Positions 54,001 to 57,000 of a stretch of DNA of 64,000 nucleotides are shown here, one piece after another. The number at the start of each line of letters is the position of its first letter. Positions within the stretch are counted from its first letter, which is position 1. The DNA is from Escherichia coli (lineage in GTDB: Bacteria; Pseudomonadota; Gammaproteobacteria; Enterobacterales; Enterobacteriaceae). The stretch lies in assembly GCF_013315695.1 (NCBI RefSeq), contig NZ_CP054353.1, one strand, 5' to 3'. Made by a program: the position numbers.

Positions 54001-57000
54001 ATAACAGTCCACCAGCGTTAGTTGCTCTCCAAACACATACGGTTCAGCGGTCAATTGTGAATTCAGCCAGATATAAAGCGATTTACGATATTCAATAACA
54101 TTATTCTTTAACTGTTCGGGTGCGTCAGGAGCCCAACGCTTAGGGTAATCGGCGAAAGTGAACGTTGGATAGACATTAGCAACCAGCCAGACCAATAACC
54201 GTTGAAACTGCTAGCGTTCGGTGCGCCCAACCGGTGGCGCAAGGTCCGGGCGACGATCGAGAACCATCAATGCAATCGCCGCTGTCTCCGTCATAATCTC
54301 GTCATTTTCCAGCGCCAGTGTCGGAATCTGACACAACGGGTTCAGGGTTTTCAATAAATCGCGTGAAGTTCCCTCGTGGTCAAAACCACTGACATCAACG
54401 AACTGATAAGGAATATCAGCCAGTGTTAGCATCATCTCACTGATTGTAGTGCCCCATCCGGGTACGCCATACACCTTAATCATATGCCCCTCACAATCTT
54501 TTAAAGATTAAGTCTAGGACAGCACACAGGTTAACCAGCAAAAGTATTTGTCATTTTTTCGTCAGTTGTATTATTCCCCTTCAGGATTGTAAGGGGATGT
54601 TTTGCATCGTTTATCGATAACGGGTAGGATGCTGCGCCGATAGTTTTATACCCATAAAGAATAATGGTGATAACTATCATCGCCAGGATGAATAAACATT
54701 GTTCATGGCAACTTATATGACTTTTTCATTAAAGCAATCAGGGAGAGCAATGAGTAAACACGACACCGACACTTCAGATCAACACGCCGCGAAACGCCGC
54801 TGGCTTAATGCCCACGAAGAGGGGTATCACAAAGCGATGGGCAATCGCCAGGTACAGATGATCGCCATTGGCGGCGCGATTGGCACCGGCTTGTTTTTAG
54901 GTGCAGGAGCCCGACTGCAAATGGCGGGTCCAGCACTGGCACTGGTTTATTTGATCTGCGGCCTGTTTTCATTTTTTATTCTGCGTGCATTGGGTGAGCT
55001 GGTGTTACACCGCCCTTCCAGTGGCAGTTTTGTCTCTTATGCCCGTGAGTTTTTGGGTGAGAAAGCCGCTTATGTTGCTGGCTGGATGTACTTCATCAAC
55101 TGGGCGATGACGGGGATTGTTGATATTACCGCCGTCGCTCTGTATATGCATTACTGGGGTGCGTTTGGCGGCGTGCCGCAGTGGGTCTTTGCGCTCGCTG
55201 CGCTGACCATCGTTGGCACCATGAATATGATTGGTGTGAAATGGTTTGCGGAGATGGAGTTCTGGTTTGCGCTTATTAAAGTGCTCGCCATCGTGACCTT
55301 TTTGGTCGTGGGTACAGTGTTCCTCGGTAGCGGTCAGCCGCTGGATGGCAACGCCACTGGCTTTCATTTAATTACCGATAACGGCGGCTTTTTCCCCCAC
55401 GGTTTGCTGCCTGCGCTGGTGTTGATTCAGGGCGTAGTGTTTGCTTTTGCCTCCATTGAAATGGTGGGTACAGCGGCCGGAGAATGTAAAGATCCGCAGA
55501 CCATGGTGCCTAAAGCGATTAACAGTGTGATTTGGCGTATTGGTCTGTTTTACGTCGGCTCCGTGGTGTTGCTGGTTATGTTATTGCCGTGGAGCGCGTA
55601 TCAGGCGGGGCAAAGTCCGTTCGTGACGTTTTTCTCTAAACTGGGTGTGCCATATATCGGCAGCATTATGAACATTGTGGTGCTGACCGCTGCCCTCTCC
55701 AGCCTGAATTCAGGTCTGTACTGCACCGGGCGTATTCTGCGCTCGATGGCGATGGGCGGTTCCGCACCGAGTTTTATGGCGAAAATGAGTCGTCAGCATG
55801 TGCCGTATGCCGGGATTCTGGCGACACTGGTTGTGTATGTCGTCGGCGTATTCCTCAACTATCTGGTGCCGTCGCGCGTATTTGAGATTGTGTTGAACTT
55901 CGCGTCGCTGGGAATCATCGCTTCATGGGCGTTTATCATCGTGTGCCAGATGCGCCTGCGTAAAGCGATTAAAGAAGGCAAAGCAGCGGATGTCAGTTTT
56001 AAACTGCCTGGCGCGCCCTTCACTTCCTGGCTGACATTACTGTTTTTACTGAGTGTCCTGGTGCTGATGGCGTTCGATTACCCGAACGGGACTTATACTA
56101 TCGCGGCGCTGCCGATTATCGGTATTCTGCTGGTTATAGGCTGGTTTGGTGTGCGCAAACGCGTTGCTGAAATTCACAGCACTGCGCCAGTCGTCGAGGA
56201 AGATGAAGAAAAACAGGAAATTGTGTTTAAACCTGAAACGGCGAGTTAATTGCAAAATTGCCCGGCTGCGTGCCGGGCAAATTCAAATTACTGAAGAAGG
56301 TGCCGGATACGGCGTGATAAAAGTCAGGCAAGTCTCTCCGTTTTCACCCTCGCCATATCTATTACAGCGCAATACGAATCACATCGTCCGGCTGGGTAGC
56401 TTCCTGCTGTTTAGTGGATTTTTGTTTCACACTGACATACAGCGTTTTGCCATCTGCAGACAGCGCCAGGCTGTTCGGATGAGTCGGCGTATCGAACGTT
56501 TTCACCACTTTATAGCTTTTCGCGTCAATCACACTGACTTTACCTGCCTGACGATGCGTCACGTAGGCTTCATTACGCGCTGGGTTAAACAGCACAGCCA
56601 GTGATTCCGGTGCCGCAACCTTCGCAAGAATATTGCCATTACGGGTATCAACCACTAACACTTCTGCCGCTTTAGAATCGGTGATAAATGCACGCTGATT
56701 GGTGGTATCAAGGCTGATGTTGATAAAGAAGTGCTCTTTGTCGTCATCCAGCAGCTTTTTACGGCTGAGGATTTTATTGTCGGCGGTGTCGATGGTAATC
56801 AATTCGCCGTCAGCGTTAGTGGTGTAAAGACGTTTGCCTTTGCTATCCAGCGCTAAACCGGTACTCATTTTACCGGTGTTCTGGATGGCGGTTTTCAGTT
56901 TGATATTCTCGCCATCAACGACCCAAATCACGCTCTCTTTACCAATACCACTGATGTAAACGGTGTTCGTGGCATCATCAGCTACCAGCTCACGCGGTTG

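What the first reader, a model, noticed from the sequence alone, without database searches (positions are those of the whole stretch)
54196..54213. Single in-frame amber codon inside yncG
The two halves of the glutathione S-transferase homolog are in the same frame, separated only by TAG at 54211-54213 (minus strand). Total length is exactly 205 codons, so this looks like a point nonsense mutation rather than an indel. The gene would be inactive unless the strain carries an amber suppressor.
Basis: seen in the sequence. Interest (0 to 1): 0.3.

Follow-up and report, generated by a model that had tools for sequence, protein, structure and literature searches.

The report
Amber nonsense mutation inactivating yncG
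A single C-to-T change has turned glutamine codon 91 of the non-essential E. coli glutathione-S-transferase-like gene yncG into a stop codon in one small clonal lineage; this is an ordinary pseudogene that public annotation already flags.

Summary
On the minus strand, 53866-54483 is a gapless 206-codon yncG reading frame (205 codons plus the terminal TAA). Its only internal stop is TAG at 54211-54213, codon 91. Five intact orthologues (GF131, CE10, SMS-3-5, 2016C-3878, K-12 DH1) all have CAG there, so the lesion is one C>T transition, Gln91 to amber, with no indel.

The identical allele occurs in exactly 5 of 5,426 complete E. coli genomes, from isolates in at least the USA and Australia. It is therefore inherited, not a sequencing error. 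RefSeq already annotates it as a pseudogene with "internal stop" in the two records I examined.

The stop falls at the junction of the two GST domains. It leaves a 90-residue N-terminal thioredoxin-like fragment.

In the closest complete genome (MSB1_4I, 14 SNPs from the window over 64 kb), every classical single-step amber-suppressor progenitor tRNA has its wild-type anticodon. No recoding RNA element or stable structure follows the TAG. Other internal stops in that genome are TAA or TGA.

yncG is independently broken in other lineages and gives no match in about 15% of genomes. Verdict: a real, ordinary, already-annotated, lineage-specific nonsense pseudogene of low interest.

The parts
53866..54483 (-). 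yncG pseudogene: 205 codons plus TAA, a glutathione S-transferase family gene
   Evidence: One search gives the translation. Searches show about 4,600 E. coli genomes matching, annotated yncG. Searches show RefSeq marking it pseudo with 'internal stop' in MS 21-1 and MSB1_4I. Synteny with ansP upstream is seen.
54211..54213 (-). Premature amber codon TAG at codon 91; the ancestral codon is CAG (Gln). The mutated base is gene position 271, window position 54213.
   Evidence: Searches give the position. One search shows CAG in GF131, CE10, SMS-3-5, 2016C-3878 and K-12 DH1. One search finds the exact 61-mer containing TAG in only 5 of 5,426 genomes.
54214..54483 (-). The 90 codons still translatable: the N-terminal thioredoxin-like GST domain plus linker. 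A GAGGGG Shine-Dalgarno-like motif lies just upstream of the ATG.
   Evidence: GST_N_2 at 1e-8, GST_N_3 at 1.7e-7 and GST_N at 4e-5, all above the Pfam cut-offs. One search shows the sequence.
53866..54210 (-). Untranslated remnant encoding the alpha-helical C-terminal GST domain (codons 92-205 plus TAA)
   Evidence: One search gives weak GST_C, GST_C_2 and GST_C_3 hits below cut-off. One search aligns the restored protein over residues 4-200 to the beta-class GST 1pmt (E = 6.6e-14), with Gln91 at the start of the C-terminal domain. The first in-frame start after the stop is a TTG at 54193-54195 with no obvious Shine-Dalgarno motif.
54141..54141 (-). Second change unique to this allele among those compared: G>A at gene position 343, GAG>AAG (Glu115Lys), downstream of the stop
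   Evidence: positions 271 and 343 are the only sites where the window differs from all five intact alleles.

Best explanation
yncG in this window is a recent, lineage-specific pseudogene. A single C>T transition changed Gln91 (CAG) to amber (TAG). Ribosomes start at the normal ATG (54481-54483) and terminate at codon 91. They release a 90-residue N-terminal thioredoxin-like fragment that lacks the whole alpha-helical C-terminal domain. That domain forms the second-substrate site and most of the domain interface in GSTs (established knowledge of the fold). I infer that the fragment is inactive. The downstream neighbour is a convergent GGDEF gene, so no polar effect on other genes is expected. 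Loss is tolerated because yncG is non-essential and has been lost repeatedly in E. coli. Shown here: the mutation, its ancestral state, its inheritance in a clone, the absence of classical suppressor tRNAs in the nearest genome, and the absence of a recoding signal. Inferred: loss of function of the truncated product.
For: There is a single in-frame TAG in an otherwise gapless 618-nt gene. Five intact orthologues have CAG at that codon. The identical allele is in five complete genomes from different isolates and countries, and the exact 61-mer around the TAG is in only those five of 5,426. RefSeq marks the gene pseudo with 'internal stop'. The stop lies at the boundary of the GST_N and GST_C domains. 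In MSB1_4I the anticodons of glnV, glnX, glnU, glnW, tyrT, tyrV, tyrU, serU, leuX and trpT are all wild type, and the supE44 positive control was detected. Rfam finds nothing at yncG, whereas it does find the SECIS behind the fdnG TGA in the same window. The RNA after the TAG folds no better than shuffled sequence (z = +1.5). Other internal stops in MSB1_4I pseudogenes are TAA (ypdE) and TGA (irp2, an integrase), so there is no amber-specific pattern. yncG is independently frameshifted in strain 536, and carries a nonsense codon plus a deletion in MMC-J-0078. It gives no match in 820 of 5,426 genomes.
Against: No expression or protein data are available, and no reads. The suppressor check was done on the closest complete genome, not on the window's own genome, which differs from it by 14 SNPs in 64 kb. 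Ochre-type suppressors derived from Lys, Glu, Leu-UAA or Ser-UGA tRNAs, and tRNAs carried on plasmids, were not examined. Intact alleles show purifying selection (dN/dS 0.13-0.42). Over-expressing yncG raises the H2O2 MIC about five-fold in K-12 (PMC8228696). The gene is therefore not functionless where it is intact, and its loss may carry some cost.
Confidence: 0.93

Rival explanations
1. The TAG is read through, either by a suppressor tRNA elsewhere in the genome or by basal near-cognate decoding by tRNA-Gln(CUG). The strain would then still make some full-length YncG, restored to the wild-type glutamine.
For: The ancestral residue is Gln, so supE-type or near-cognate Gln insertion would restore the wild-type protein. 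The base after the stop is C, which from my recollection of E. coli termination-context studies is a comparatively weak context. That point was not tested here. The rest of the frame carries only one further unique substitution.
Against: All classical single-step amber-suppressor progenitor tRNAs are wild type in the closest genome. The window itself contains no tRNA. There is no stimulatory structure or Rfam element at the site. Other pseudogenes in the genome use TAA or TGA. Basal readthrough in E. coli is well below 1% (established knowledge), which is unlikely to be physiologically meaningful.
Confidence: 0.03
2. The truncated 90-residue N-terminal thioredoxin-fold fragment is itself stable and retains or gains a function, such as glutathione binding. 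On this reading the allele is a domain-shortened gene rather than a dead one.
For: The fragment contains the complete GST_N domain, which scores above Pfam cut-offs. The start codon and Shine-Dalgarno-like motif are intact. The allele persists in five isolates on at least two continents.
Against: The persistence is within a tight clone: identity rounds to 100.0% over the parts of a 24-kb stretch that these genomes share. That is what hitch-hiking of a neutral lesion would give. In GSTs the N-domain packs against the C-domain and is not known to act alone (established knowledge of the fold). No other E. coli lineage I examined has this architecture as a conserved form. The other broken alleles break at different places.
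Confidence: 0.03
3. The TAG is a sequencing or assembly error, and the real gene is intact.
For: No read data could be inspected.
Against: Five independently assembled complete genomes of different sizes and origins (5.27-5.48 Mb; those with a stated origin are from the USA and Australia) carry the same T. So does the window, which is not identical to any of them that I compared. A substitution error is also unlikely in a non-homopolymer context.
Confidence: 0.01

Closest known systems
E. coli K-12 yncG (b1454), a putative glutathione S-transferase homologue
   Same: It has the same locus (downstream of ansP, divergently transcribed) and the same 205-codon length. Nucleotide identity is 92.4%. 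It has the same two-domain GST architecture.
   Different: K-12 has CAG at codon 91 and an intact frame. Its downstream neighbours also differ: yncH and an rhs remnant in K-12, against a convergent GGDEF gene and an alkyl/aryl-sulfatase here.
yncG pseudogene annotated 'internal stop' in RefSeq genomes MS 21-1 (NZ_CP146670.1) and MSB1_4I (NZ_LR898874.1)
   Same: The 618-nt sequence is 100% identical, including the TAG. This is the same allele.
   Different: Nothing differs within the gene. Across the 64 kb the window differs from MSB1_4I by 14 SNPs. MS 21-1 lacks two of the window's IS1 insertions.
Other yncG pseudogenes: strain 536 (frameshifted) and MMC-J-0078 (frameshifted plus internal stop)
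   Same: The same gene is inactivated in natural isolates.
   Different: The lesions are independent and at different positions. Strain 536 has an early frameshift and an 18-nt gap. MMC-J-0078 has a stop near codon 143 and an 11-nt gap. Neither has the amber at codon 91.
Beta-class bacterial GSTs with solved structures (Proteus mirabilis GST B1-1, 1pmt; E. coli Gst, 1a0f)
   Same: The restored protein aligns over nearly its full length (E = 6.6e-14 and 2.5e-11).
   Different: The similarity is distant. According to Kanai et al. 2006, as cited in PMC8228696, YncG showed no GST activity when made in a cell-free system.
Programmed stop-codon recoding, as in fdnG selenocysteine in this same window
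   Same: Both are in-frame stop codons inside a conserved gene.
   Different: fdnG has a TGA followed immediately by a SECIS_3 element (84 bits). yncG has a TAG with no RNA element, no structure, and a sense codon in all intact orthologues compared.

Membership tests
Glutathione S-transferase family (yncG orthologue) | N-terminal thioredoxin-like GST_N domain | tested here: met
   GST_N_2 36.1 bits (cut-off 25), GST_N_3 31.9 bits (cut-off 22), GST_N 24.2 bits (cut-off 20.9) on residues 1-90.
Glutathione S-transferase family (yncG orthologue) | C-terminal alpha-helical GST_C domain | tested here: inconclusive
   Pfam GST_C, GST_C_2 and GST_C_3 score 18-20 bits, below their cut-offs. However, the full-length alignment to the beta-class GST 1pmt spans residues 4-200 at E = 6.6e-14.
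Glutathione S-transferase family (yncG orthologue) | Orthology by position: adjacent to and divergent from ansP, same length | tested here: met
   the alignment is gapless over 618 nt.
Glutathione S-transferase family (yncG orthologue) | Uninterrupted reading frame encoding both domains | tested here: not met
   TAG at codon 91.
Nonsense-mutation pseudogene | Intact orthologues carry a sense codon one substitution away, with no indels | tested here: met
   CAG in five intact alleles, with a gapless alignment.
Nonsense-mutation pseudogene | The lesion is inherited and not an assembly artefact | tested here: met
   It is identical in five complete genomes and in the window.
Nonsense-mutation pseudogene | No cognate suppressor tRNA in the genome | tested here: met
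   This was tested in the closest complete genome only. glnV/X, glnU/W, tyrT/V/U, serU, leuX and trpT are all wild type, with a positive control. Lys, Glu, Leu-UAA and Ser-UGA tRNAs, plasmids and the source genome itself were not examined.
Nonsense-mutation pseudogene | Loss of the protein's function | not testable with these tools
   This needs an expression or activity assay. It is inferred from the loss of the whole C-terminal domain.
Programmed stop-codon recoding (selenocysteine or pyrrolysine) | The stop codon is conserved in orthologues and accompanied by a recoding element (SECIS for UGA; the pyl machinery for UAG) | tested here: not met
   Orthologues have CAG. The only Rfam hit in the window is the fdnG SECIS. 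There is no structure after the TAG. The absence of pyl genes in E. coli rests on general knowledge and was not tested.

The most novel reading that the evidence does not exclude
The amber allele is not fully dead. Either low-level Gln insertion at UAG-C by wild-type tRNA-Gln(CUG) yields a trickle of wild-type YncG, or the stand-alone 90-residue thioredoxin-fold fragment keeps a glutathione-binding role in this clone.
Probability: 0.04. Interest if true: 0.15.

Novelty: already known. Interest (0 to 1): 0.05.

Why it matters
It matters very little. It is one more example of a non-essential stress-related gene decaying in a clonal E. coli lineage that also shows active IS1 transposition and several other pseudogenes. 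At most, the TAG is a convenient single-nucleotide marker for this clone. It might slightly lower peroxide tolerance, given that yncG over-expression raises H2O2 resistance in K-12 (PMC8228696). For annotation, the correct call is pseudogene, as RefSeq already has it.

Tried and rejected
(1) Searching all complete genomes with the supE44 allele of tRNA-Gln as the query. It matched 155 records, more than the 60 that can be listed, and all 60 listed were K-12-sized laboratory strains. It could not show directly whether the TAG lineage lacks supE, so I located the tRNA loci in MSB1_4I by synteny instead.

(2) My first guess for the tRNA-Gln operon position assumed collinearity with K-12 and was wrong. 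The MSB1_4I record runs opposite to K-12 and also carries a large inverted segment.

(3) A Dcm (CCWGG) deamination hotspot was considered as the cause of the C>T change. The ancestral context is GCCAGC, which is not a Dcm site, so I rejected it.

(4) Re-initiation to make a separate C-terminal protein. The next in-frame start is a TTG at codon 97 with no Shine-Dalgarno motif, and the first ATG is far downstream. I judged this implausible.

(5) The promoter and terminator scan around the gene gave nothing beyond chance.

(6) The large protein-database, structure-prediction and metagenome searches were not used, because the question was settled by close orthologues.

Full report
**Observation.** Reading the minus strand from 54483 to 53866 gives 206 codons. 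There is one internal stop, TAG at codon 91 (window 54211-54213), and a terminal TAA at 53866-53868. The mechanical ORF list splits this into a 90-aa ORF (54211-54483) and a 109-aa ORF that begins at a TTG (53866-54195), both in one frame. The finding's interval 54196-54213 is the TAG plus the five codons before that TTG. The description is therefore accurate.

**Identity of the gene and of the window.** The 618-nt stretch matches about 4,600 of 5,426 complete E. coli genomes, where it is annotated yncG, a glutathione S-transferase family protein. Only five genomes are 100% identical: MS 21-1, MSB1_4I, OZ547117, OZ546925 and OZ546911. The next best is 98.7%.

The whole window is the reverse complement of MSB1_4I (NZ_LR898874.1) positions 2472989-2536988, apart from 14 SNPs, none of them in yncG.

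**Ancestral state.** A gapless alignment with intact yncG from GF131, CE10, SMS-3-5, 2016C-3878 and K-12 DH1 shows CAG at codon 91 in all five.

Among these six alleles the window differs from all the others at only two sites. One is this base. The other is a G>A at gene position 343 (Glu115Lys), downstream of the stop. The ancestral context GCCAGC is not a Dcm site.

**Is it real?** The exact 61-mer centred on the TAG is present in exactly the same five complete genomes and no others. Those genomes differ in size (5.27-5.48 Mb). The two with a stated origin are a colon isolate from the USA and a rectal swab from Australia. The window is a sixth, slightly different sequence. An assembly or sequencing error is therefore very unlikely, although I could not inspect reads.

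**Consequence for the protein.**
- The 90 residues before the stop carry a complete GST N-terminal (thioredoxin-like) domain, scoring above Pfam cut-offs.
- The remainder gives weak GST C-terminal hits.
- With Gln restored, the protein aligns over residues 4-200 to beta-class GSTs of known structure (1pmt at 6.6e-14, 1a0f at 2.5e-11). Residue 91 falls at the start of the C-terminal helical domain.
- Termination at codon 91 therefore removes the entire C-terminal domain. I infer loss of function from what is known of the GST fold; this was not measured.
- The next in-frame start is a TTG at codon 97 without a Shine-Dalgarno motif, so a separate C-terminal product is implausible.
- The gene downstream is a convergent GGDEF gene that abuts yncG's stop codon, so no polar effect is expected.

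**Suppression and recoding.** The window has no tRNA gene. As a positive control, ARAGORN detected the supE44 allele (anticodon CTA) in strain DH1.

A database-wide search with that allele found 155 records, and the 60 listed were all laboratory K-12-type strains. This was not decisive for the lineage. I therefore located the relevant tRNA loci in MSB1_4I by synteny. The anticodons found are below.

| tRNA gene(s) in MSB1_4I | Anticodon found |
|---|---|
| glnV, glnX | CTG |
| glnU, glnW | TTG |
| tyrT, tyrV, tyrU | GTA |
| serU | CGA |
| leuX | CAA |
| trpT | CCA |

All are wild type. No supE, supB, supF/supC, supD, supP or Trp-derived amber suppressor is present in the closest complete genome.

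Further points argue against recoding:
- Rfam finds a single element in the whole window. It is the SECIS behind the in-frame TGA (codon 196) of fdnG. That serves as an internal example of what genuine recoding looks like.
- Nothing comparable is present at yncG.
- The 100 nt around and after the TAG fold less stably than shuffled controls (z = +1.5).
- Other "internal stop" pseudogenes in MSB1_4I use TAA (ypdE) or TGA (irp2 and an integrase). There is no hint of amber-specific tolerance.

**Context: yncG is dispensable and often lost.**
- 820 of 5,426 genomes give no match.
- Strain 536 carries a frameshifted copy, and MMC-J-0078 a copy with a different stop and a deletion.
- Intact alleles show moderate purifying selection (pairwise dN/dS 0.13-0.42), so the gene is functional where it is intact.
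- In the literature held here, yncG over-expression raised the H2O2 MIC about five-fold in K-12. YncG had no GST activity when made in a cell-free system (PMC8228696, citing Kanai et al. 2006).

**Comparison with what is known, and novelty.** This is the same allele that RefSeq already annotates as a pseudogene, so it is already known. It works like any nonsense pseudogene. It fails the tests for programmed recoding, because orthologues have a sense codon and there is no recoding element. It remains a yncG orthologue by sequence and position, but it does not meet the intact-frame criterion.

**Verdict.** The feature is an ordinary lineage-specific amber pseudogene of very low interest. What remains open is minor:
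- The source genome itself, its plasmids and the ochre-type suppressor candidates were not scanned.
- No expression data exist.

Noticed in passing
window 32864-32922 (-) and 32917-32919 (-), within fdnG at 30457-33504 (-): fdnG has an in-frame TGA at codon 196, followed immediately by the only Rfam hit in the window, SECIS_3 at 84 bits. This is the known selenocysteine site of formate dehydrogenase-N. It is a useful contrast to the yncG TAG.
   Followed up: yes
window about 14439-15210, 50976-51750 and 59802-60573: There are three 100%-identical IS1A copies. One splits an alkyl/aryl-sulfatase gene. One sits between mcbR and pqqU. One abuts a dosP gene that has lost its N-terminus, with dosC absent. 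The sulfatase and mcbR-pqqU insertions are missing from the otherwise near-identical MS 21-1, so IS1 has moved recently within this clone.
   Followed up: partly
window 53865/53866: The yncG stop codon and the stop codon of the convergent GGDEF-domain gene (about 52816-53865, + strand) are directly adjacent, with no intergenic base and no terminator-like hairpin. In K-12 this GGDEF gene and the sulfatase are replaced by yncH and an rhs remnant. The last 45 nt or so of yncG are the most divergent part against K-12, so the 3' end of yncG is the edge of a variable region.
   Followed up: partly
window 2840, 3914, 10517, 10868, 10937, 10955, 16380, 26983, 31154, 36826, 40111, 41951, 45320, 49848: These are the 14 single-base differences between the window and MSB1_4I. 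The window therefore comes from a very close relative with the same IS1 pattern, not from that exact assembly.
   Followed up: no
window about 36139-38724 (-): One intact leucine-rich-repeat protein gene is followed by two truncated or frameshifted LRR gene fragments, next to an ompC-like porin gene (annotation of MSB1_4I).
   Followed up: no
yncG alleles, loci L002-L006 against window 53866-54483: Synonymous divergence between this allele group and K-12 is high for E. coli (dS about 0.21-0.24). The window allele also looks mosaic: it resembles GF131/CE10 in the 5' part and SMS-3-5 in the 3' part. This suggests recombination at the locus.
   Followed up: partly
L012-L021 (MSB1_4I chromosome, outside the window): The closest genome shows widespread gene decay. 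ypdE has an internal TAA and irp2 an internal TGA. irp1 and dinI are frameshifted. dgcQ is split by a Mu-like prophage and yjgL by IS1. A fliR remnant lies next to an IS1 where the fliE-fliR cluster should be. About 35 places per genome matched the 24-kb query in this lineage, against 9 in CE10. This probably reflects a high IS1 copy number.
   Followed up: partly
MSB1_4I record, 1.56-3.67 Mb (L012, L013, L016, L018-L021): Relative to K-12, the record runs in the opposite direction. The exception is a segment from at least K-12 1.07 Mb to 2.04 Mb, which includes yncG and is in K-12 orientation. This implies a large inversion roughly symmetric about the terminus.
   Followed up: no
L011 21690-21764 (-) (strain DH1Ec104): RefSeq annotation leaves the supE44 suppressor tRNA (anticodon CTA) unannotated, and ARAGORN labels it tRNA-Pyl. 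Suppressor tRNAs can therefore be invisible in feature tables and must be looked for in the sequence.
   Followed up: yes
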